A DNA stretch of 64,000 nt from Phenylobacterium deserti (GCA_945883235.1 CAMCXF010000009.1:34632-98631), one strand, 5' to 3'. Positions 18,036-61,496 are shown, numbered from the stretch's first letter. The notes: generated by a model from the letters alone, not told the origin. Translations and numbers: made by a program.

Positions 18036-18045
18036 GGCGGCCCAA

Positions 18046-18179
18046 CGCCCCCTCCGTCGCCCCGGATCAAGTCCGGGTCGCCACCTCCCCCGTCGTCTTC
18101 GCGACAAGGGAGGAGCGATGGCGGTTCCGCTCCTCCCTCGCTTGCGGGGGAGGTGGCGGCGAAGCCGACGGAGGGGGCG
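18046..18179. repeat. About 134-bp imperfect palindrome (three nested stems), a REP-like G-rich element between convergent gene ends
   Basis: cgccccctccgtcg pairs with cgacggagggggcg, ccacctcccccg with cgggggaggtgg, and agggaggagcg with cgctcctccct. The motifs are related to the repeat family at 25987, 30068 and 31988. Confidence 0.65.
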
Positions 18180-18186
18180 CTGCGCT

Positions 18187-19134: not shown

Positions 19135-19887
19135 ATGCGCCTCAGACAAATCGCCCTGGTCGGCCAGGACCTTGAGGCCGCCACAGCTGATATCGTCGCT
19201 GTCCTGGATCTTGGCGCAGCCTATGCCGACCCGGGTGTCGGAAAGTTCGGCCTGAAGAACGCTGTCTGGCCGGTAGGCGACACATTCCTTGAGGTGGTGA
19301 CGCCCAAGGCGCCCGGCACCACGGCGGGTCGTCTGCTGGAAAAACGCGACGGCGACGGCGGCTATATGGTCATTCTCCAGGTCCCCGACATTGCTGGGGC
19401 CCGCAGCCACATTCAGGCTGCAGGCGCGCGGGTGATCGAACAGGTCGATATACCGGGCAAGGTGTCCATGAGCCACATCCACCCCAAGGATATCGGCGGC
19501 GCGATCCTGTCGGTGGACCAAATGATCCCGCCGGAAGCCTGGGAATGGGGTGGCCCGCACTGGCAGGCCAGCGTGCAGACCGGGACGTCGGTTGCCATTG
19601 TCGGCGGTGAATTGCAGGGCGACGATCCCGCCGGTATGGCGGCCCGATGGGCCAGGGCGCTGGGTTGTGAGGCCGTGGCCATGCAGGGCGGTTGGCGGAT
19701 CGCTCTCGACCGCAGCGAACTTCGGTTCGTCAATGCGAGCGACGGCCGTGGCGAGGGGCTAGGCGCGTTCGATGTCGCGGTCCATGACCCCGCAACCGTG
19801 CGAGCGCGCGCCAAGGCGCGCGGATTGCTCGACGCAGACGGCGAGGTGACTCTATGCGGTGCCCGCGTCCGGCTGGTGCAGGCCTGA
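19135..19887 (+). CDS. VOC (glyoxalase-like) family protein
   Basis: 250-aa ORF with glyoxalase-like beta-alpha-beta repeats (weak recognition). Confidence 0.5.
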   Translation: MRLRQIALVGQDLEAATADIVAVLDLGAAYADPGVGKFGLKNAVWPVGDTFLEVVTPKAPGTTAGRLLEKRDGDGGYMVILQVPDIAGARSHIQAAGARVIEQVDIPGKVSMSHIHPKDIGGAILSVDQMIPPEAWEWGGPHWQASVQTGTSVAIVGGELQGDDPAGMAARWARALGCEAVAMQGGWRIALDRSELRFVNASDGRGEGLGAFDVAVHDPATVRARAKARGLLDADGEVTLCGARVRLVQA

Positions 19888-19891
19888 CGCC

Positions 19892-20320
19892 CTATTCGCT
19901 GCGGCTGAGGATCGAGGCGGTGTCGACCAGTTCGGCCAGCAGCGCCAGGGTCGACTGACCCGAGCAGTCGAACGGATCCAGCTCCACCCGCCTGAAATAC
20001 TTCAACAGCAGTGACGGATTGATCTTGGCGATATTCACCTGGCCCATGGTCCAGTTGCCAAACCGCCGCTCGCGGATTTCTTCATAGACCAGCAATCTGA
20101 CCTGCTGGTGGCGTTCGTCCATGACGATCTTATTGTAGAGATCATTGACCTCATCGCGACCGCCTTCAAGCACCTGAATGAACAGGCCTTCGGACACGCA
20201 GAGCAGTCCTGTCACACCCAGTCTGGGATTATTCTTGCGCGATTTGGCAAGGATATCGTCGAAGGACGAAGGGACCAGCGCCGCTGACGGCCGGCTGGCA
20301 TAAAGGCTGCGTACGAGCAT
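19892..20320 (-). CDS. BLUF-domain blue-light photoreceptor (stand-alone, short C-terminal extension)
   Basis: Conserved Tyr (SLYASR), Gln (FIQVLEG) and Trp/Met (NWTMG), plus VTGLL and DERH. Confidence 0.85.
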   Translation of the reverse strand: MLVRSLYASRPSAALVPSSFDDILAKSRKNNPRLGVTGLLCVSEGLFIQVLEGGRDEVNDLYNKIVMDERHQQVRLLVYEEIRERRFGNWTMGQVNIAKINPSLLLKYFRRVELDPFDCSGQSTLALLAELVDTASILSRSE

Positions 20321-21130: not shown

Positions 21131-23830
21131 CTATTTGTCGGTCAGGTTCCAGACGCCATCCCAGTCTGCCGGCGGCGGCGTCTGCGCCAGGACCTTGCAC
21201 CGTTGCAGGTAGGTCGCCGATGGGCCATCTTTCGGATAGAGTTCCAGAGCTGCCGCGAAGGACCGCGATGCCTCAGCCCAGTTTCTGACGCGATAGGCCT
21301 CGACGCCGGCCGCATGCAATTCAAGCAACGCCGATAGCCCTGGCTCGCCGGCGCGGTAGCCCAGGGACTCATAGACCGCCACGGGGCGATCCTTGCCCTT
21401 CACGCGTATCAGATCGATTTCCCTCAAGGTGGCCGGGCGTTTCAGCGACCGCACCGTCGTCTCTGACAACACGATTTTGGCACCGTACTGCTTCGTGGCA
21501 CTTTCCAGCCGCGAGGCCAGGTTCACATTGTCGCCGATCACCGTGTAATCCAGCCGGCGCACCGAGCCGATGTTGCCGACCACGGTGGGGCCCGTCGAGA
21601 ACCCGATCCCGATATCCAGGGCCACCTGTCCGGCGGCGACGCGCCTTAGGTTGAGCTCGGACAGGCGCCGCATCATGTCATCGGCGGCAGCCAGGGCATT
21701 GTCCGCATCGTTCGGGCCGACAAGCGGCGCGCCGAAAAGGGCCATGATGCCGTCGCCCATATATTTGTCGAGGATGCCGCCGTGCTGGAAAATCACGTCG
21801 ACCATCTCGGTGAAGTACTCGTTCAGCAGCGACACGGTCTCGCGCGGGCCCAGGGCTTCTGCGATCGAGGTGAAGCTCCGGATGTCGGAGAACATCACCG
21901 TGACCTTCTGCTCCTTGCCGCCCAGTTCCAGTTCACCGGCGGACAACAACTGGTCCGCCACCTCCTTCGACATATAGCGCGACATCGTGGACCGGACGCG
22001 CTTCTCCTCGGTGATATCCTCCAGCACCAGCATGGAGCCGATCCGGGCCTCGGTCGCATCGATGAGCGGCATGGCGGTCAGGTTCACGGTCGAGACGCCC
22101 CCGTCGCCGCGCGCCAGTTCCGCATCGATGGCCAGCGCAGTCTCGCCGCCCTCGGCCTTGCCCAGACTGTCGATGATCCAGGCATTTGCGCCCGTGAACA
22201 CCGTGCTGGCTTCCCGTCCGATCAGGAGGTCGCGGGCCAGCCCGAGCAACACCTCGGCGGTGTCGTTTGCGGTGACGATCTTGCCGTCGGCGTCAAGGGT
22301 GACGATGCCGTTCGACGTGCTCTTCAGAATGCTCTCGTTGTAGTTCTTGATGCTCAGCACATCGTCGAACAGCTTGGCGTTTTCCAGGCTGACCGCCACC
22401 TGGGCTGCGAACGCCTTCATGCGGGACTCGTCCTTGACCGAGAAATGGCCACCGCGCTTGTTCAGGGCCTGTGCGACGCCGATGCGGGCTCCCGCTTTGT
22501 TGGTGATCGGGACGCAAAGAATGCTTCGGGTTGTGAAGCCGGAGAGCCGGTCAATCGCGGAATTGAAGCGAGGGTCCTGATAGGGTTCGTCGATATTTTC
22601 GATCTTTCCCGAGGTGAAGACTGCTCCGGCAATTCCGCTGGTGGTCGGTACCCGGATCTGCCGCATCTCCATGCCGTCGGCATAGACGGTGTAGAGTTCG
22701 TCGGTCTTGTCGTCATAGATGAACAGCGAGGCGCGTTCGGCAGTCAGCAGCTGGGTCGTCGCCGTCATGATCCGGGCGATCAGGACTTCCAGCAGCAGTT
22801 CGCCTGCCAGATCCTGCGTAACCTCCAGGATCTGCTGCTCCTCGCGCAGGGAATTCAGCATCAGATCGAAACCTCGATTGATGTCCGCGTATTCGTCGGT
22901 ACTCAACACCTCCAGCCGAGCGTCTTCCAGCTGGCCGCGCTCGACCCGGCGCATGGCTTCGATCAGCCTTGCGGCAGATTGGGACACCTCGCGTGAGGTC
23001 AGGACGGCCATCGAGACCGAGCCCAGGATGCAGACGCCCACCACGCCGGCGCTCCAGATGTAAAGCGCCACCATCTCGCTGGACGGGACCGTGAACCCGT
23101 TGCCCTTCAGCATCCGATCAAACTTGAACAGGAACGAGGCGGCGGCAAAGGCCAGCGGCAAGGAACTGACGGCGATCGCCAGGAACAACAGCTTTGTGCG
23201 CAGTGGCACCGAGGTCAGCTCGGCCAGCTGGTTGGGCGGAACCTGGCCGTCCAACTCGCGCGACAGGCGTTGGGCCAGCGGCTGGATGACGCGACTGACC
23301 GCGAAATACTCGAAGATCGCGTGCGCCGGCGTGGCGAAGACGAAGATCAGGGTCGCCAGCGCGAGCACCTGCCACAGGGCCACCCCGGCATCGAAGAAGA
23401 CGTTGATCGGGACGATCACCAGCAGCAGCGACAGCGTCGCCATGGGGCCGTGCAGCACGATCACCCTGACAGCGGACAACTGAGGCAGGTTCAACGCCCG
23501 CACCAGCGCGGTACCAAGGACAACGTCATCAGGCCGCGTGCCCCGGTCGAGCGCAGTCAGAACCGGCGCAAGGGGTTTGAGGTGTCGCCTGATCGCAATG
23601 ACGTCGATCGAGGTGAAGAAGGCGACTGCGAATGGCGCGCCCAGCCAGAACAACAGCCACTGACGGCTGGTGAACTCCAGCCCCAGCAGACCCAGCCCCA
23701 TCGAGATCGCGACGGCTGTGATCGACGCCATGTGGTAGATAACGATCAGACGCCAGAAAAGCGCGCGTCCGGAATCGGAGACGCGGCCTGAGTCCTCCGA
23801 CACGAGAGCGTGAGGCGCAGACGCGTTCAC
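21131..23830 (-). CDS. Membrane-anchored class III adenylate cyclase with HAMP, GAF and PAS domains and a TPR-like tail
   Basis: N-terminal TM helices and a cyclase core VTVMFSDIRSFTS...KYMGDGIMALFGAP...DYTVIGDNVNLASRLE. The Lys/Thr specificity pair suggests an ATP substrate. Confidence 0.85.
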   Translation of the reverse strand: MNASAPHALVSEDSGRVSDSGRALFWRLIVIYHMASITAVAISMGLGLLGLEFTSRQWLLFWLGAPFAVAFFTSIDVIAIRRHLKPLAPVLTALDRGTRPDDVVLGTALVRALNLPQLSAVRVIVLHGPMATLSLLLVIVPINVFFDAGVALWQVLALATLIFVFATPAHAIFEYFAVSRVIQPLAQRLSRELDGQVPPNQLAELTSVPLRTKLLFLAIAVSSLPLAFAAASFLFKFDRMLKGNGFTVPSSEMVALYIWSAGVVGVCILGSVSMAVLTSREVSQSAARLIEAMRRVERGQLEDARLEVLSTDEYADINRGFDLMLNSLREEQQILEVTQDLAGELLLEVLIARIMTATTQLLTAERASLFIYDDKTDELYTVYADGMEMRQIRVPTTSGIAGAVFTSGKIENIDEPYQDPRFNSAIDRLSGFTTRSILCVPITNKAGARIGVAQALNKRGGHFSVKDESRMKAFAAQVAVSLENAKLFDDVLSIKNYNESILKSTSNGIVTLDADGKIVTANDTAEVLLGLARDLLIGREASTVFTGANAWIIDSLGKAEGGETALAIDAELARGDGGVSTVNLTAMPLIDATEARIGSMLVLEDITEEKRVRSTMSRYMSKEVADQLLSAGELELGGKEQKVTVMFSDIRSFTSIAEALGPRETVSLLNEYFTEMVDVIFQHGGILDKYMGDGIMALFGAPLVGPNDADNALAAADDMMRRLSELNLRRVAAGQVALDIGIGFSTGPTVVGNIGSVRRLDYTVIGDNVNLASRLESATKQYGAKIVLSETTVRSLKRPATLREIDLIRVKGKDRPVAVYESLGYRAGEPGLSALLELHAAGVEAYRVRNWAEASRSFAAALELYPKDGPSATYLQRCKVLAQTPPPADWDGVWNLTDK

Positions 23831-25986: not shown

Positions 25987-26153
25987 TTCTCCTCACCCAT
26001 CGGGGGAGGGGGACCCCGAAGGGGTGGAGGGGGCCGCCGTCGCACGGTGTCGGCCAGGCCAATGCGGGTGCTGAAGTTGTCACAGGTTTCAGCCGCGGCA
26101 GGCCCCCTCCACCACGCTCCGCGCGGTCCCCCTCCCCCGATGGGTGAGGAGAG
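25987..26153. repeat. Gene-less pair of G-rich inverted repeats (arms about 48-53 bp, about 66-bp centre) of the DUF559-associated family
   Basis: Left arm: tctcctcacccatcgggggagggggacc-N7-ggtggagggggcc. The right arm is its reverse complement with a different short loop. Confidence 0.75.
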
Positions 26154-30067: not shown

Positions 30068-30130
30068 TTACCTCCCCCGCGTAGCGGCGGGAGGGGGACC
30101 GCGCCCCGAAGAGGGCGGGGTGGAGGGGGC
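30068..30130. repeat. G-rich repeat arm (left arm of DUF559 cassette 1)
   Basis: ttacctcccccgcgtagcggcgggagggggaccgcgccccgaagagggcggggtggagggggc. Its inverted partner is at 30514-30578. Confidence 0.75.
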
Positions 30131-30457
30131 AGGCGGCGCGCTCCGCCGTTCGTCCGCCAACCTCAAAACACAGTCCGCCACCCGACCCGGATCCCGGAAA
30201 ACCTCTGACGCCGGAACGCGCAGCACCGCCACACCTTGTCGCGAAAGCCAGTGATCCCGCGCCTCATCCCGATCTCGACTCGTCTCATCCCAGTGCGACG
30301 ACCCATCGACCTCGACAGCCAGCCTTGCCGAGGGGCAATAGAAATCGACGATGATGGAACCGATGGGATGTTGTCGGCGGAATGTCGGCTTATCCGGATT
30401 TCGGCCTCGCAGGCGGGTCCATAGCAACACTTCGGGCGGGCTCATGGACTTTCGCAT
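30068..30457 (-). CDS. DUF559 (Vsr/PD-(D/E)XK-like) endonuclease domain protein
   Basis: MSPPEVLLWTRLR...FRRQHPIG..IVDFYCPSARLAVEVDGSSH...RD..L...G..VLRV. The C-terminal about 25 codons read through the repeat arm. The track ORF extends to 30679. Confidence 0.8.
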   Translation of the reverse strand: MRKSMSPPEVLLWTRLRGRNPDKPTFRRQHPIGSIIVDFYCPSARLAVEVDGSSHWDETSRDRDEARDHWLSRQGVAVLRVPASEVFRDPGRVADCVLRLADERRSAPPAPSTPPSSGRGPPPAATRGR

Positions 30458-30513
30458 CGCCCGGGCGCGGGTGGCGATCAGAGTGATGTTTCGCACGGCG
30501 TGACTCGCGGCTT

Positions 30514-30578
30514 GCCCCCTCCACCACGTCCTCTTCGGGGCGCGGTCCCCCTCCCGCCACTGCGTGGGGGAGGTGAGA
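30514..30578. repeat. G-rich repeat arm (right arm of DUF559 cassette 1)
   Basis: Its reverse complement, tctcacctcccccacgcagtggcgggagggggaccgcgccccgaagaggacgtggtggagggggc, matches the arm at 30068-30130. Confidence 0.75.
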
Positions 30579-30672
30579 ACAATACAGGAACAAAAATGTC
30601 GGCCGCAGTCAACTTCTGGCGCCCCCACCCCCGCCAGCGTATGAACCCCCCACCCGGGGGCAGAACACACAC

Positions 30673-31947
30673 ATGGCATCCAGCATCCTCCTCCAGCTCC
30701 AGGGCCTGATCGGCATCGCCCTGATCACCCTGACCGCCTGGGCGCTTTCCGAAGACCGCCGCAACCGGCCCCGCGCCCTCTGGATCCTCGGCGCCATCGC
30801 CCTGCAGATCGCCATCGCGCTGATCGTCGTGCGCGTGCCCTTCGTGTGGTCCATCATCGGCCTGGCCAACCACGCCGTGGCCGCCATCGAGCAGGCCTCG
30901 CTGGTCGGCTCCAGCTACATGTTCGGCTACACGGGCGGCGGGGCGCTGCCGTTTGAGCTGAAACCGGGCGTCGCGCCGCCCCTGATCATCGCCTTCCAGA
31001 TCCTGCCGCTGATCATCGTCTATTCGGCGCTGGCGGCGCTGATGTGGCACTGGGGCGTGCTTTCGAGGATCGTTCAGGGCCTGTCCTGGGCCCTGCGCCG
31101 CACTCTGGGCGTCAGCGGCGTGGTGGGCCTCAGCGCCGGGGCGAACATCTTCCTGGGCGTCGTGGAATCGCCGCTGGTGGTGCGGGCCTATTTCGAGCGG
31201 ATGAGCCGGGCCGAGCTGTTCGCCGTCATGGTGCTGGCCATGTCCAACATCTCGGGCGTCTTGCTGGTGCTCTACGCCCAGACCCTGTCGAAGAGCGTGC
31301 CCGACGCGGTCGGCCACATGATCTCGGCCTCGCTGATCTCGCTGCCGGCGTCGATCCTGATCGCCCGGCTGATGCTGCCCGGCCAGGGCGGCACCGACGC
31401 CTCCACCGACGAGGCGGGCCTCAAATACGACAGCAGCATCGACGCCATCGTGCGCGGCACTATGGACGGCGTGCAGCTGTTCCTGGCGGTGATCGGGGTG
31501 ATCATCGTGATCTTCGCCCTGGTCGCCCTGGTGGATCAGGCCCTGACGCTGGCACCCCTGTTCGACGGCCAGCCGCTGACGCTGCGGCGGATCTTCGGCT
31601 GGCTGTTCTCGCCCCTGATGTGGACCCTGGGCGTGCCCTGGGACCAGGCGCCCCAGGCCGGGGCCCTGATGGGCACCAAGACCATCCTCAACGAATATGT
31701 CGCCTATCTGGACCTGGCCGCCCTGCCGGTGGCGACGTTCGATCCGCGCAGCCAGCTGATCGTCACCTATGCCCTGTGCGGCGTCGCCAACCTGGCCAGC
31801 GTCGGCCTCCTGGTCTCCACCATCGGCACGCTGGCACCCGGTCGACGGGCCGAGGTGGCGGCGCTGGGCATGAAATCCTGGCTCGCCGGCAACATGGCCT
31901 CCGCCATGACCGGCGCGGTGATCGGCCTGGTGACCTGGGTCGGGTGA
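30673..31947 (+). CDS. NupC/CNT-family concentrative nucleoside transporter
   Basis: 424-aa polytopic protein whose N-terminus LQGLIGIALITLTAWALSEDRR and overall pattern are typical of CNT transporters. Confidence 0.8.
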   Translation: MASSILLQLQGLIGIALITLTAWALSEDRRNRPRALWILGAIALQIAIALIVVRVPFVWSIIGLANHAVAAIEQASLVGSSYMFGYTGGGALPFELKPGVAPPLIIAFQILPLIIVYSALAALMWHWGVLSRIVQGLSWALRRTLGVSGVVGLSAGANIFLGVVESPLVVRAYFERMSRAELFAVMVLAMSNISGVLLVLYAQTLSKSVPDAVGHMISASLISLPASILIARLMLPGQGGTDASTDEAGLKYDSSIDAIVRGTMDGVQLFLAVIGVIIVIFALVALVDQALTLAPLFDGQPLTLRRIFGWLFSPLMWTLGVPWDQAPQAGALMGTKTILNEYVAYLDLAALPVATFDPRSQLIVTYALCGVANLASVGLLVSTIGTLAPGRRAEVAALGMKSWLAGNMASAMTGAVIGLVTWVG

Positions 31948-31987
31948 GGGGGACGCATTCCTCCTATCCGACGGTCACGGTCCCCCC

Positions 31988-32039
31988 TTCTCCTCACCCG
32001 TCGGGGGAGGGGGACCGCGCGAAGCGGGGTGGAGGGGGC
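31988..32039. repeat. G-rich repeat arm (left arm of DUF559 cassette 2)
   Basis: ttctcctcacccgtcgggggagggggaccgcgcgaagcggggtggagggggc. Confidence 0.8.
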
Positions 32040-32073
32040 TTGCCGGACCCTCCGCTTTTGACATTCTGACCCG

Positions 32074-32415
32074 ATGTACGCCCCGAAGCCAACAATTCGC
32101 CGCGCGCGGTCGCTTCGCCGCCGGATGACGCCGCCGGAAGCACGTCTCTGGGTCGCATTGCGTCGCAAAACCCAGGGGCTGCGGTTCCGCCGTCAACACC
32201 CCATCGGCCCCTATGTGCTGGATTTCTACTGCGACGCCGCCAAGCTCTGTGTGGAAGTGGACGGCCAGACACACTGGATCGGCGACGCTCAGGCGCGCGA
32301 CGCAGAGCGCGATGCCTGGTTGGCGTTGCGAGGCATCAGGACTTTGCGCATCGCGGCGAGCCTGGTGTTCGAGGATCTGGACACCGCCCTTCGAATGATC
32401 GAGGCGAACGCATAG
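32074..32415 (+). CDS. DUF559 endonuclease domain protein (paralog of 30068-30457)
   Basis: MTPPEARLWVALR...FRRQHPIGPYVLDFYCDAAKLCVEVDGQTH...RD..L...GIRTLRI. Confidence 0.8.
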   Translation: MYAPKPTIRRARSLRRRMTPPEARLWVALRRKTQGLRFRRQHPIGPYVLDFYCDAAKLCVEVDGQTHWIGDAQARDAERDAWLALRGIRTLRIAASLVFEDLDTALRMIEANA

Positions 32416-32431
32416 GCGCTGTGCGACGGAG

Positions 32432-32482
32432 GCCCCCTCCACCCCGCTTCGCGCGGTCCCCCTCCCCCGATGGGTGAGGAGA
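32432..32482. repeat. G-rich repeat arm (right arm of DUF559 cassette 2)
   Basis: By hand alignment its reverse complement differs from the arm at 31989-32039 at one position out of 51. Confidence 0.8.
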
Positions 32483-32505
32483 ATGAACGGAAGTGATGCA
32501 CCTGA

Positions 32506-32559
32506 CCCTCTCCTCCCCCGTCGGGGGAGGGGGACCAGACGTAGTCTGCTGGAGGGGGC
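32506..32559. repeat. Additional solo G-rich repeat arm (left-arm orientation)
   Basis: ccctctcctcccccgtcgggggagggggaccagacgtagtctgctggagggggc. Together with the arm at 32432 it forms a tail-to-tail doublet. Confidence 0.7.
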
Positions 32560-32618
32560 TTGGCTTGCGCCCGCGTTCAGGACAGTTTCCTCACGCTCGG
32601 AAAGGTCCCTAACTCCCC

Positions 32619-61401: not shown

Positions 61402-61496
61402 TGGCGGAGATGGATGGGAATCGAACCCACCACACGCCTTTTGGACGTGTCACTGGTTTTGAAGACCAGGGAAGCCACCAGACTCCAGTCACCTCC
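61402..61496 (-). tRNA. selC: tRNA-Sec (anticodon UCA), 95 nt including an encoded CCA
   Basis: GGAGGTGA acceptor arm, 6-bp D-stem with a 4-nt loop (GGAGUC-UGGU-GGCUUC), anticodon arm CUGGU-CUUCAAA-ACCAG, a long variable arm (ACACGUCC-AAAA-GGCGUGU), T-arm GGGUUCGAUUCCC, and ...CUCCGCCA at the 3' end. Confidence 0.93.

What the first reader, a model, noticed from the sequence alone, without database searches (positions are those of the whole stretch)
30068..32559. DUF559 endonuclease genes enclosed by long G-rich inverted repeats: a REP/RAYT-like or cassette-like selfish element?
Two DUF559 (Vsr/PD-(D/E)XK-like) genes flank the nucleoside transporter gene. Each sits between inverted copies of a structured repeat of about 50-63 bp with conserved blocks CTCCTCACCC..GGGGGAGGGGGACC-(7-18 nt hairpin loop)-GGTGGAGGGGGC. 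In cassette 2 the arms (31989-32039 and 32432-32482) differ at one of 51 positions by hand alignment. The two DUF559 proteins, by contrast, are identical at only about half of aligned positions. The repeats are therefore far better conserved than the genes they enclose. This fits active repeat homogenisation or mobilisation, possibly by the enclosed nuclease, as REP sequences flank RAYT genes. I saw no target-site duplications, which argues against classical DDE transposition. The ORF of cassette 1 reads through its repeat arm and gains a Pro/Gly-rich tail. I know of no described mechanism linking DUF559 to such repeats.
Basis: partly seen in the sequence, partly recalled or inferred. Interest (0 to 1): 0.7.

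Follow-up and report, generated by a model that had tools for sequence, protein, structure and literature searches.

The report
Nuclease genes bracketed by REP-like repeats
Two small DUF559 (Vsr-like) nuclease genes in this Phenylobacterium-like genome each sit between inverted copies of a G-rich, two-hairpin repeat that is also scattered through the genome in large numbers, an arrangement that mirrors the known REP/RAYT systems but with a different kind of enzyme and that recurs in several bacterial phyla.

Summary
Both DUF559 genes (30068-30496 minus strand; 32074-32415 plus strand) are bracketed, tails inward, by inverted copies of a 50-65 nt repeat "R": CCTCCCC-loop-GGGGAGG-GGGACC-variable hairpin-GGT-GGAGGGGG.

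R is a high-copy, intergenic, REP-like family found across alphaproteobacterial orders. It occurs mostly without a gene, as singlets and tight inverted doublets. Only about 5% of R-selected loci hold a DUF559 gene.

The reverse association is near-absolute. Of 80 metagenomic loci chosen only by DUF559 similarity, 75 carry R-type arms. R density beside the gene is 65 times that of the rest of the same loci.

Related G-rich hairpin arms flank DUF559 genes in Sinorhizobium, Azospirillum, Deinococcus and Pseudanabaena, but not in E. coli, Klebsiella or Neisseria.

The gene is under purifying selection (dN/dS 0.07-0.2). It is often kept at orthologous sites and is occasionally gained: strains about 97-98% identical lack the whole 668-nt block holding cassette 2.

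Hairpin covariation, a G:T versus A:C bias and GNA triloops indicate that the G-rich strand folds, probably as single-stranded DNA.

Best reading: a REP/REPIN-RAYT-like system whose associated enzyme is a PD-(D/E)XK nuclease. The mechanism is inferred, not shown. I found no published description.

The parts
30070..30130 (+). Left arm of cassette 1: R repeat, type I, long-hairpin subtype. Head CCTCCCCC, P1 hairpin, GGGACC, P2 hairpin, tail GGTGGAGGGGGC pointing at the gene.
   Evidence: (I1)
30068..30496 (-). DUF559 gene d1. Probable GTG start at 30496. There is no stop before the arm, so it reads through the left arm to 30068 and gains a non-conserved Pro/Gly tail.
   Evidence: 30496 C>T makes the start ATG in runs X7, X9 and X16.
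30514..30578 (-). Right arm of cassette 1, the inverted copy of the left arm. It carries a compensatory change in the P1 extension (CCGC/GCGG versus CCAC/GTGG).
31951..32618 (.). 668-nt block that is present in this strain and absent in close relatives, where TCTG stands in its place. It holds cassette 2, a further R and degenerate R remnants at both ends.
   Evidence: Joint 31950->32619 in contigs of X9 and X16. More distant relatives have a 5-nt spacer here.
31951..31985 (-). Degenerate R-like remnant (ATTCCTCC ... GGTCCCCCC) abutting the head of the cassette 2 left arm. Parsed by eye, low confidence.
   Evidence: the repeat finder D4 and I19
31989..32039 (+). Left arm of cassette 2: R repeat type I.
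   Evidence: (I2, 98%)
32074..32415 (+). DUF559 gene d2, 113 aa, with the catalytic motif intact (E22, D50, E61-x-D63, H67).
32432..32482 (-). Right arm of cassette 2, with 1 mismatch to the left arm.
32509..32559 (+). Further R copy 26 nt after cassette 2. It has a different P2 hairpin (CAGAC-GTA-GTCTG) and forms a head-to-head pair with the right arm.
   Evidence: (D1, I3)
32575..32618 (-). Degenerate R-like remnant (TTTCCTCAC ... GGTCCCTAACTCCCC) that ends exactly at the block boundary. Low confidence.
   Evidence: boundary
25987..26034 (+). R type I, left half of an ORF-less tail-to-tail doublet with a 67-nt spacer.
   Evidence: present in all four related populations
26102..26152 (-). R type I, right half of the same doublet.
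18041..18106 (-). R type II (core GGGGGAGGTGGC ... GACGGAGGGGGC), left half of a head-to-head doublet between convergent ORFs.
18123..18183 (+). R type II, right half of the head-to-head doublet.

Best explanation
The two cassettes belong to a widespread system built from two components.

Component 1 is R, a 50-65 nt intergenic repeat. Its G-rich strand folds into two hairpins: P1 (CCTCCCC pairing with GGGGAGG) and a hypervariable P2. Both are followed by a G-rich tail, GGAGGGGG. R populates alphaproteobacterial genomes in large numbers, at least about 130 copies in one Sphingomonas assembly, as singlets and inverted doublets. This is how REP and REPIN elements are organised.

Component 2 is a gene of about 115 codons for a DUF559 nuclease, a Vsr-like member of the PD-(D/E)XK superfamily. 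It is present in a few copies per genome. Each copy sits at the centre of an inverted R pair with the tails facing the gene.

I propose that the nuclease is the cognate enzyme of the repeat, playing the role RAYT plays for REP/REPIN. It would recognise the folded G-rich strand, most likely as single-stranded DNA exposed during replication or as an extruded hairpin. It would nick at or beside the repeat, and host repair or replication would then copy, convert or maintain R units.

The gene itself is mostly inherited vertically. It is occasionally copied to a new intergenic site together with its arms and without a target-site duplication, as happened for cassette 2.

Shown here: the architecture, the statistical association, the folding strand, purifying selection on the protein, and presence/absence of the block. 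Inferred: that the nuclease binds or cuts R, and how copies are made.
For: Association from the gene side. In 80 loci picked only by protein similarity, 41 carry strict type I arms on both sides. Nearly all the rest carry variant arms. In total 75 of 80 have an R-type arm on at least one side. R density near the gene is 65 times that of the rest of the same loci, and arms point tail-inward 125 times against 21.

Association from the repeat side. In 120 loci picked only by the repeat, 7 hold a DUF559 gene, and it is always adjacent to or between R copies.

REPIN-like population structure. Among 255 R copies there are 53 solo copies, 73 tail-to-tail doublets, 22 head-to-head doublets and 6 cassettes, with only 2 pairs in direct orientation. 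No pair has a spacing between 90 and 348 nt.

Copy-number ratio. Sphingomonas parapaucimobilis has at least 132 R hits against 3 DUF559 genes. About 10 R copies, all intergenic, lie in a 50-kb chromosomal stretch.

Each paralogue has its own arm subtype. This holds for d1 versus d2 in the window and for three arm types on three paralogues in S. parapaucimobilis.

The theme recurs in other phyla: Deinococcus in 4 of 4 loci, Pseudanabaena in 2 of 2, plus Sinorhizobium and Azospirillum lipoferum.

Structure is selected on one strand. P2 is fully paired in 165 of 183 distinct copies, against 67 of 180 when partners are shuffled, and there are 105 distinct P2 sequences. G:T pairs number 36 against 2 A:C pairs. 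82% of P2 loops are GNA triloops, the type known to give very stable DNA mini-hairpins.

The protein is functional. dN/dS is 0.07-0.20 and the catalytic residues are invariant in 34 sequences. A confident AlphaFold model (pLDDT 89.6) matches 3HRL, the homing endonuclease I-Bth0305I and Vsr.

Both persistence and gain are seen. Cassettes are kept at orthologous sites across species, while similar cassettes also occur in unrelated contexts. A population-level empty allele exists for cassette 2.
Against: No biochemical or genetic evidence links the nuclease to R; everything here is association.

A 113-aa nuclease has no strand-transfer activity and no separate DNA-binding domain, so any dissemination must rely on host functions.

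Arm type I versus II tracks the protein tree only weakly: within-type identity is 52.5% and between-type 49.8%, and 5 cassettes have mixed arms. This is partly explained by I/II heterodimer doublets.

The tight packing of the gene between the arms is tighter than in typical RAYT loci and would also fit rival models. In many cassettes the GGAGG tail sits 5-12 nt before the ATG and the stop codon lies a few nt from the other arm.

I could not test whether genomes that have R always have the gene, and the reverse.

The only experimentally studied DUF559 protein in this bacterial order is Caulobacter VsrA. It was interpreted as a mismatch-repair nuclease linked to cytosine methylation, not to repeats (PMC12907096).
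Confidence: 0.5

Rival explanations
1. Homing-type selfish gene. DUF559 is a free-standing homing endonuclease gene whose target is the centre of an R doublet or an R-containing spacer. It cuts gene-less sites and is copied in by double-strand-break repair, using the R arms as homology. On this view R elements are the landing pads and not the products, and they spread by some other means.
For: The nearest characterised structural relative apart from 3HRL is the catalytic domain of the homing endonuclease I-Bth0305I.

The gene sits exactly where the spacer of a tail-to-tail doublet would be, and cassette size (348-394 nt) equals ORF plus a short spacer.

There is no target-site duplication, and 4 nt were replaced at the empty site.

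Cassettes with mixed type I/II arms mirror the I/II heterodimer doublets.

About 14 nt next to one arm of the gene-less doublet at 26 kb match the 3' flank of cassette 2.
Against: The ancestral empty site of cassette 2 holds no doublet at all, only 4-5 nt between two genes.

In S. parapaucimobilis the standard doublet is I/II but the type-I cassette is I/I.

Only a small share of inverted R pairs hold the gene: 6 cassettes against 73 tail-to-tail doublets in repeat-selected loci.

Many cassettes are retained at orthologous sites under purifying selection for long periods, unlike the gain-decay-loss cycle typical of homing genes.

The overall similarity between the doublet spacer and the cassette flanks is marginal: score 11 against a null maximum of 11.5.
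Confidence: 0.2
2. Autonomous inverted-repeat element with miniature derivatives. R-DUF559-R is itself the mobile unit, a minimal transposon with terminal inverted repeats. The doublets are its gene-less, MITE-like derivatives, mobilised in trans by the nuclease acting as an unconventional transposase.
For: Sizes are bimodal, doublets versus cassettes, with no intermediates.

Similar cassettes, with 82-93% identical proteins and near-identical arms outside P2, occur in unrelated flanks.

A whole block including arms was gained at a new site.

The gene is extremely compact between the arms.
Against: There is no target-site duplication.

No DDE, HUH or recombinase domain is present.

Doublets within one genome differ in spacer length, for example 23 versus 67 nt, and are often I/II heterodimers. 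They are therefore not simple deletion copies of one master element.

Solo R copies and head-to-head pairs are common.

Copies in unrelated contexts differ at 38-64% of synonymous sites, so they are not recent jumps.
Confidence: 0.12
3. Housekeeping repair nuclease with cis-acting RNA or DNA hairpins. DUF559 acts elsewhere, for example in Vsr-like mismatch or methylation-linked nicking as proposed for Caulobacter VsrA. The flanking R copies serve only to express or insulate a potentially toxic gene inserted in operons, by supplying a Shine-Dalgarno sequence, stabilising the mRNA, or pairing the 5' and 3' ends.
For: No promoter-like or terminator-like site lies inside the cassettes.

The GGAGG tail of the upstream arm lies 5-12 nt before the ATG in many cassettes.

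Cassettes sit inside operons: sufB-sufC, pntAA-pntAB, paaD-paaZ, and transporter-pgsA-like in the window.

VsrA damages DNA when ScmA methylation is missing and is co-transcribed with its upstream gene.
Against: This does not explain why the same repeat exists in numerous gene-less copies, nor why the association holds across phyla with different arm sequences but the same design.

About half of the cassettes are oriented against both neighbouring genes.

GNA triloops favour DNA folding over RNA folding.

DUF559 genes in E. coli, Klebsiella and Neisseria do without arms.
Confidence: 0.1
4. Invertible switch. The inverted arms mediate flipping of the gene by homologous or programmed recombination. 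This would turn expression on or off relative to read-through transcription from the surrounding operon.
For: A domain-wide screen found 'DUF559 domain-containing protein' 14-fold enriched, and 'Endonuclease domain-containing protein' 9.6-fold enriched, among predicted programmed-inversion targets (PMC9881135).

Cassette orientation relative to neighbours looks random.

Arms within a cassette are more alike than random arm pairs: P2 is identical in 7 of 44 cassettes against 2 of 300 random pairs.
Against: No recombinase gene lies nearby.

That enrichment may simply reflect annotated ORFs running into the arms.

The only data available here are assembled contigs, which cannot show inversion.

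An inversion switch would not explain the many gene-less repeats.
Confidence: 0.05

Closest known systems
REP / REPIN elements and their RAYT (TnpA-REP) genes in Gammaproteobacteria (Nunvar 2010; Bertels and Rainey 2011, PMC3116915; Ton-Hoang 2012)
   Same: Both have short structured intergenic repeats at high copy number, occurring mainly as inverted doublets plus singlets. Both have a low-copy gene flanked by inverted copies of the repeat, with paralogue-specific repeat subtypes. In both the gene is largely inherited vertically and is under purifying selection, and the repeats fold as single strands.
   Different: The flanked gene is a 113-aa PD-(D/E)XK DUF559 nuclease, not an HUH/Y1 transposase. 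The repeat is a two-hairpin, G-rich unit of 50-65 nt without a GTAG head. The gene is packed within 10-50 nt of both arms. The same design is shared across orders and appears in other phyla.
CGTC-tagged REPs of Alphaproteobacteria (Di Nocera et al. 2013, PMC3733652)
   Same: Both are abundant palindromic intergenic repeats of Alphaproteobacteria, mostly organised as inverted dimers. The CGTC REPs are reported to 'lack a dedicated transposase'.
   Different: CGTC REPs are single 8-9 bp stems that start with A/T pairs and end in a CCA tail. R has G-rich conserved blocks and two hairpins, so it is a different family. That paper reports no link to DUF559.
I-Bth0305I and the EDxHD homing endonucleases (PDB 3R3P)
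   Same: They share a Vsr-like catalytic fold and detectable sequence similarity (E 4e-4 with the profile; Foldseek TM 0.66). Both are selfish-gene candidates that spread without target duplications.
   Different: I-Bth0305I sits in a group I intron and carries an added DNA-binding region. The cassette genes are free-standing, minimal, and bracketed by repeats.
Vsr very-short-patch repair endonuclease (PDB 1VSR, 1CW0) and Caulobacter VsrA, CCNA_02930 (PMC12907096)
   Same: They belong to the same superfamily and share the catalytic constellation. VsrA is a DUF559 protein from the same order (Caulobacterales). It is not linked to a methyltransferase gene, is co-transcribed with its upstream neighbour, and can damage DNA.
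   Different: E. coli Vsr is a separate Pfam family, is paired with dcm and has a zinc site. Whether VsrA has R arms was not testable here. No methyltransferase gene lies next to either window cassette.
NGO0050 of Neisseria gonorrhoeae (PDB 3HRL), a structural-genomics DUF559 protein
   Same: It is the closest solved structure (E 4e-22; TM 0.70 normalised to the query and 0.84 to the target).
   Different: It has no known function, and the N. gonorrhoeae locus examined has no flanking inverted repeats.

Membership tests
Pfam DUF559 (PF04480) | Match to the family profile above the curated cut-off | tested here: met
   91.5 and 92.8 bits against a cut-off of 20.6.
Pfam DUF559 (PF04480) | PD-(D/E)XK fold with the conserved acidic and histidine residues | tested here: met
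   D50, E61, D63 and H67 are invariant in 34 sequences. The AF2 model has pLDDT 89.6 and matches 3HRL, 3R3P and 1VSR.
REP/REPIN-RAYT system | High-copy, short, structured repeats confined to intergenic DNA | tested here: met
   At least 132 hits in one Sphingomonas genome. About 10 copies, all intergenic, lie in 50 kb. Arm depth is 10-40 times single-copy depth.
REP/REPIN-RAYT system | Inverted doublets as the main organised form | tested here: met
   73 tail-to-tail and 22 head-to-head doublets against 2 direct pairs.
REP/REPIN-RAYT system | A low-copy gene flanked by inverted copies of the repeat | tested here: met
   75 of 80 gene-selected loci carry arms, with 65-fold enrichment.
REP/REPIN-RAYT system | The flanked gene encodes an HUH/Y1 tyrosine transposase (RAYT) | tested here: not met
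   The only Pfam hits are DUF559 and, below cut-off, MTES_1575. The fold is PD-(D/E)XK.
REP/REPIN-RAYT system | Conserved unpaired GTAG-type head next to a single palindrome | tested here: not met
   The conserved blocks are CCTCCCC, GGGGAGGGGGACC and GGTGGAGGGGG, and there are two hairpins.
REP/REPIN-RAYT system | The enzyme binds and cleaves its repeat | not testable with these tools
   Needs biochemistry.
Vsr repair endonuclease | Match to the Vsr profile and genetic linkage to a C5-cytosine methyltransferase | tested here: not met
   There is no Vsr Pfam hit. The neighbours are an ABC-F ATPase, a nucleoside transporter and a CDP-alcohol phosphatidyltransferase. Structural similarity to 1VSR is only moderate (TM 0.53).
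Vsr repair endonuclease | Nicks 5' of T in a T:G mismatch | not testable with these tools
   Only a lead: 34 of 183 R copies carry a G:T pair at a fixed position of P2.
Homing endonuclease (EDxHD / I-Bth0305I type) | Vsr-like catalytic domain | tested here: met
Homing endonuclease (EDxHD / I-Bth0305I type) | Encoded within an intron or intein, or beside a defined cognate target that is absent from gene-bearing alleles | tested here: inconclusive
   There is no intron or intein. An empty allele exists, but it holds no R doublet and no recognisable target.
Insertion sequence / MITE pair | Terminal inverted repeats | tested here: met
Insertion sequence / MITE pair | Target-site duplication | tested here: not met
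   The filled allele reads ...GTGAGGG|block|ATGTTT and the empty allele ...GTGAGGG TCTG ATGTTT. There is no duplication and 4 nt are replaced. This is a single site.
Insertion sequence / MITE pair | A recognised transposase (DDE, HUH, or serine/tyrosine recombinase) | tested here: not met
Integron gene cassette | A single attC at the 3' end, arrays next to an intI integrase gene | tested here: not met
   Arms lie on both sides and the cassettes are dispersed singly inside operons. No integrase gene lies nearby.
Rfam RNA families | Match to any curated covariance model | tested here: not met
   The only match at gathering score is tRNA-Sec. In E-value mode the arms give only sub-threshold microRNA hits, which are artefacts of the hairpins.

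The most novel reading that the evidence does not exclude
DUF559 nucleases are the dedicated enzymes of a large, previously unrecognised superfamily of G-rich hairpin repeats. The shared design is a C-rich strand pairing with a GGGGAG(A)GG strand, followed by a G-rich tail. The superfamily spans Alphaproteobacteria, Deinococcus and Cyanobacteria. It would be a second, RAYT-independent kind of REP system, in which a structure-specific PD-(D/E)XK nick on folded single-stranded DNA, followed by host-mediated copying, disseminates or homogenises the repeats. This would assign a function to a domain of unknown function that is common in bacterial genomes.
Probability: 0.35. Interest if true: 0.9.

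Novelty: new variant of a known kind. Interest (0 to 1): 0.78.

Why it matters
REP-type repeats are among the most abundant non-coding features of bacterial genomes. Only the GTAG class has a known partner enzyme (RAYT). The 2013 survey of alphaproteobacterial CGTC REPs, a different repeat family, stated that those repeats lack a dedicated transposase.

A second repeat-enzyme pairing built on a different nuclease fold would have several consequences:
- It would show that this lifestyle evolved more than once.
- It would give a testable function to DUF559.
- It would explain spurious Pro/Gly tails and over-long ORFs in many genome annotations.
- It would explain why DUF559 genes score as "programmed inversion" targets in the domain-wide screen.
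- It would explain assembly breaks around these genes.
- It would offer another reading of Caulobacter VsrA, a DUF559 protein that damages DNA when a cytosine methylation is lost.

The cassettes also sit inside conserved operons such as suf, pnt and paa, so they may affect expression of the surrounding genes.

Tried and rejected
- Rfam. There is no family for R at gathering score or in E-value mode.
- Single-sequence folding. The z-scores are unremarkable, from 0 to -2.2, because G+C-rich shuffles fold as well. Covariation across copies was the informative test.
- MAFFT alignment of R copies. It was not structure-aware in the 5' part. I therefore counted pairs directly in a script instead of building a covariance model.
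- Literature. Searches for the repeat blocks as strings found only unrelated eukaryotic and viral hits. Searches on DUF559, REP/RAYT/Vsr, RIME and MITE/homing terms found no description of this association.
- The idea that R equals the CGTC REPs. Rejected on their published anatomy.
- Co-evolution of arm type I versus II with the protein tree. The signal is weak. The two types turned out to be the two halves of heterodimer doublets.
- The idea that the 26-kb doublet is cassette 2 minus its ORF. Only about 14 nt next to one arm clearly match, and the overall score is marginal.
- G-quadruplex potential. A canonical motif is present only in some arm types (Sinorhizobium, one Sphingomonas type, Pseudanabaena galeata). 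The window's type I arms qualify only if a long hairpin-bearing loop is allowed.
- Promoter and terminator scan of the cassettes. It found no promoter-like site and one terminator-like hairpin inside the d2 coding sequence, no more than the 0.8 expected from shuffles.
- Look-ups that failed. One relative's contig had no DNA and one protein was not on record.
- RNA-seq. No RNA runs exist for this organism, only metagenome contigs. Transcription and inversion could therefore not be examined.

Full report
**What is in the window**

The window is 66% G+C. Its closest named relatives for both the DUF559 protein and the nucleoside transporter are Phenylobacterium (Caulobacterales). Near-identical DNA occurs in lake, river and estuary metagenomes.

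They are the only DUF559 genes in the 64 kb and are 45-48% identical to each other. The gene between them is a CNT-family nucleoside transporter.

Each DUF559 gene is bracketed by inverted copies of one repeat.
- Cassette 2 arms are 52 nt long and 98% complementary.
- Cassette 1 arms are 86 nt long and 85% complementary. Their repeat core is 92% identical over 62 nt.
- The conserved blocks occur 8 and 7 times in the window, against about 1 expected by chance.

There are further copies.
- One R lies 26 nt after cassette 2, at 32509-32559.
- A gene-less tail-to-tail doublet lies at 25987-26152, with a 67-nt spacer.
- A head-to-head doublet of a variant repeat lies at 18041-18183.

**Anatomy of the repeat (R)**

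From 181 to 255 copies collected here and elsewhere, the unit reads as follows.
- (A/T)TCCTCCCC, a loop or extra stem, then GGGGAGG. Together these form hairpin P1.
- GGGACC, a variable stem-loop, then GGT. Together these form hairpin P2.
- A tail, GGAGGGGG, often followed by C-nn-GCCGC.

A second type (type II) replaces GGGACC...GGT by TG(G/T)C...GAC.

P2 is hypervariable, with 105 distinct sequences in 183 distinct copies, yet it is fully paired in 165 of 183. When the 3' halves are exchanged among copies of the same length, only 67 of 180 are fully paired.

Non-Watson-Crick pairs in P2 are G:T 36 times and A:C twice. It is therefore the G-rich strand that is selected to fold.

82% of P2 loops are GNA triloops closed by C:G. 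From established knowledge, d(GCGAAGC)-type GNA triloops give unusually stable DNA mini-hairpins. On that basis I infer folding as single-stranded DNA, but RNA is not excluded.

Single-sequence folding energies are not exceptional. No Rfam family matches.

**R is a large REP-like family**

These came from Sphingomonadales, Caulobacterales, Hyphomicrobiales, Acetobacteraceae and Rhizomicrobium.

In those loci plus the window, 255 R copies are arranged as follows:
- 53 singlets;
- 73 tail-to-tail doublets, with 17-89 nt between the repeats;
- 22 head-to-head doublets;
- 6 pairs spaced 348-394 nt, every one of which encloses a DUF559 gene;
- only 2 pairs in direct orientation;
- no pair spaced between 90 and 348 nt.

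In Sphingomonas parapaucimobilis YK209, one type I query finds at least 132 copies over about 3.5 Mb. The assembly is deposited as "plasmids" but carries ribosomal operons. A 50-kb stretch holds about 10 copies, all intergenic, mostly as type I/type II heterodimer doublets with a common design.

In the window's own population, arm depth is 10-40 times single-copy depth, and the loose ends of contigs reveal many different flanks.

**The association with DUF559**

Starting from the repeat, only 7 of 120 loci hold a DUF559 gene, but in each it lies beside or between R copies.

Starting from the gene, I fetched 80 metagenomic loci by protein similarity alone.
- 41 have strict type I arms on both sides, at 10-70 nt from the coding region.
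- Nearly all the apparent exceptions have variant arms.
- 75 of 80 have an R-type arm on at least one side.
- R density within 150 bp of the gene is 6.28 per kb, against 0.096 per kb in the rest of the same loci. That is 65-fold, with Poisson P about 1e-204.
- The tail points at the gene in 125 cases against 21.

The cassettes are very compact. In many of them the GGAGG tail lies 5-12 nt before the ATG, and the stop codon lies a few nt from the other arm or is missing. When it is missing, annotated proteins acquire non-conserved Pro/Gly tails, as in cassette 1.

**Beyond Alphaproteobacteria**

I ran tblastn of d2 against the plasmid collection, which includes several mislabelled chromosomes, and inspected the flanks of the hits.

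Loci with inverted arms of the same design (a C-rich strand pairing with GGGGAG(A)GG, then a G-rich tail):
- Sphingobium;
- all three S. parapaucimobilis paralogues, each with a different arm type;
- Sinorhizobium, with 130-nt compound arms;
- Azospirillum lipoferum;
- four of four Deinococcus loci;
- two of two Pseudanabaena loci.

The signal was weak in Synechocystis.

Loci with no arms: E. coli, Klebsiella, N. gonorrhoeae, Photobacterium, one Methylobacterium locus and A. brasilense.

The cassette habit therefore belongs to part of the DUF559 family, but that part crosses phylum boundaries.

**Evolutionary behaviour**

The protein is under purifying selection. dN/dS is 0.07-0.20 in ten of eleven pairs, and the catalytic residues are invariant.

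Some cassettes have stayed at orthologous sites across species. Examples are L134/L151 and L162/163/168/199, where protein identity is 71-83% and flank identity mostly 82-94%.

Other similar cassettes lie in unrelated contexts, for example L131/133/135/148. In that group the arm outside P2 is identical between copies, whereas 38% of synonymous sites differ.

Arms within one cassette are more alike than random arm pairs.

Cassette 2 is a gain.
- Species with 82-86% identical transporters have 5 nt between the transporter stop codon and the next start codon.
- Contigs from two metagenomes, about 97-98% identical to the window, join 31950 directly to 32619 with only TCTG between them.
- The 668-nt block comprises cassette 2, a further R and degenerate R remnants at both ends.
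- It shows no target-site duplication.
- The native sequence at its left edge, GTCGGGTGAGGG, resembles the R core. This hints at a microhomology junction, but it is a single case.

Cassette 1 and the 26-kb doublet are fixed in all four populations examined.

**The protein**

A confident AlphaFold model (pLDDT 89.6) and profile searches place d2 in the following order of similarity:
1. N. gonorrhoeae NGO0050 (3HRL, function unknown);
2. the catalytic domain of the homing endonuclease I-Bth0305I (3R3P);
3. PvuRts1I;
4. Vsr.

It is a bare nuclease core with an N-terminal helical pair. It has no transposase or recombinase domain.

The only studied DUF559 protein from this bacterial order is Caulobacter VsrA (CCNA_02930). 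It causes an SOS response when the solitary cytosine methyltransferase ScmA is missing, and it is co-transcribed with its upstream gene. Its published active-site numbering is offset by about 52 residues from d2 (PMC12907096). That offset would fit an over-long annotated ORF like that of cassette 1. This is an inference; I could not read that locus.

**Interpretation**

The architecture corresponds to REP/REPIN-RAYT feature by feature, except for the enzyme class and the repeat sequence.

I therefore favour a cognate nuclease-repeat system. The DUF559 protein would recognise folded R on the G-rich strand and nick it, and host functions would then copy or convert R units. The gene would be kept in the middle of a doublet. 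I put confidence at 0.5, because no step of enzyme action has been shown.

The main rival is a homing-type selfish gene that uses R doublets as landing pads (0.2). The fold relationship and the position of the gene speak for it. The R-free ancestral site of cassette 2 and the long vertical persistence of cassettes speak against it.

The other rivals are:
- a minimal inverted-repeat transposon with MITE-like derivatives (0.12);
- a repair nuclease whose arms are only cis-acting expression elements (0.1);
- an invertible switch (0.05).

**Prior knowledge**

I found no paper linking DUF559 to flanking repeats. Two papers touch on it.
- A domain-wide screen lists "DUF559 domain-containing protein" as 14-fold enriched among predicted programmed-inversion targets, without discussing it (PMC9881135). 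That is what these arms would produce.
- A survey of REPs concluded that the alphaproteobacterial CGTC REPs, a different repeat, lack a dedicated transposase (PMC3733652).

The held library is incomplete, so an earlier description elsewhere cannot be excluded.

Noticed in passing
window 61406-61496 (-): A selenocysteine tRNA gene: Rfam tRNA-Sec, 74.6 bits against a gathering score of 47. It is the only Rfam match in the window.
   Followed up: no
window 18041-18183: A head-to-head doublet of the type II variant of the repeat (GGGGGAGGTGGC ... GACGGAGGGGGC) lies between two convergent ORFs. The window therefore carries both repeat types.
   Followed up: partly
window 31939-31954 and junction at 31950/31951: The last codons of the transporter gene (GTC GGG TGA + GGG) resemble the R core GTCGGGGGAGGG. 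The inserted block begins exactly where that resemblance would continue (GGAC). This is a possible microhomology junction, seen at one site only.
   Followed up: partly
R copies in L001-L200 and the window: 34 of 183 distinct copies have a G:T pair at one fixed position of hairpin P2 (ACC-G...T-GGT), while the reverse T:G arrangement is seen only twice. This is intriguing because Vsr-type enzymes recognise T:G mismatches.
   Followed up: no
L215, L231, L232, L233 (Deinococcus psychrotolerans; Sphingomonas parapaucimobilis): DUF559 cassettes sit in the short spacers of conserved operons: paaD-paaZ, pntAA-pntAB, sufB-sufC and yqeY-dnaG. The window's cassette 2 likewise sits between two genes that are 5 nt apart in relatives.
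   Followed up: partly
L234:11690-11865, 19850-20010, 21690-21855, 30745-30925: In S. parapaucimobilis the standard doublet is a heterodimer. One arm is type I with a variable P2. The other is type II with a conserved P2 (CAGGCCTTCGGCCTG). The two arms share head and tail sequences.
   Followed up: partly
L216, L229, L228, L232, L233, L214 (arms): Several arm types without a P2 hairpin contain a canonical G-quadruplex motif, for example GGGGAGAGGGCTAGGGTGAGGGG. Its first two G-tracts are also the 3' strand of hairpin P1, so hairpin and quadruplex would compete. The window's type I arms qualify only if a long hairpin-bearing loop is allowed.
   Followed up: partly
window 32160-32370; runs X1, X7, X9, X16: The same metagenomes hold a second d2-like sequence, 91-93% identical. 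It is also present in populations whose transporter locus is empty, so a paralogous or allelic copy exists elsewhere. It is a possible donor for cassette 2.
   Followed up: no
P0005, P0019, P0066, P0079, P0113; window 30068-30679: Many database DUF559 proteins carry non-conserved Pro/Gly/Ser-rich N- or C-terminal extensions. These are translations of the repeat arms. This looks like a systematic annotation artefact, and it would also inflate 'inversion target' calls.
   Followed up: partly
Foldseek hits 9i05, 9g6k, 6z1p: Several mitoribosomal proteins of Toxoplasma and Tetrahymena match the DUF559 fold. This agrees with a report of DUF559-like domains in apicomplexan proteins and is unrelated to the finding.
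   Followed up: no
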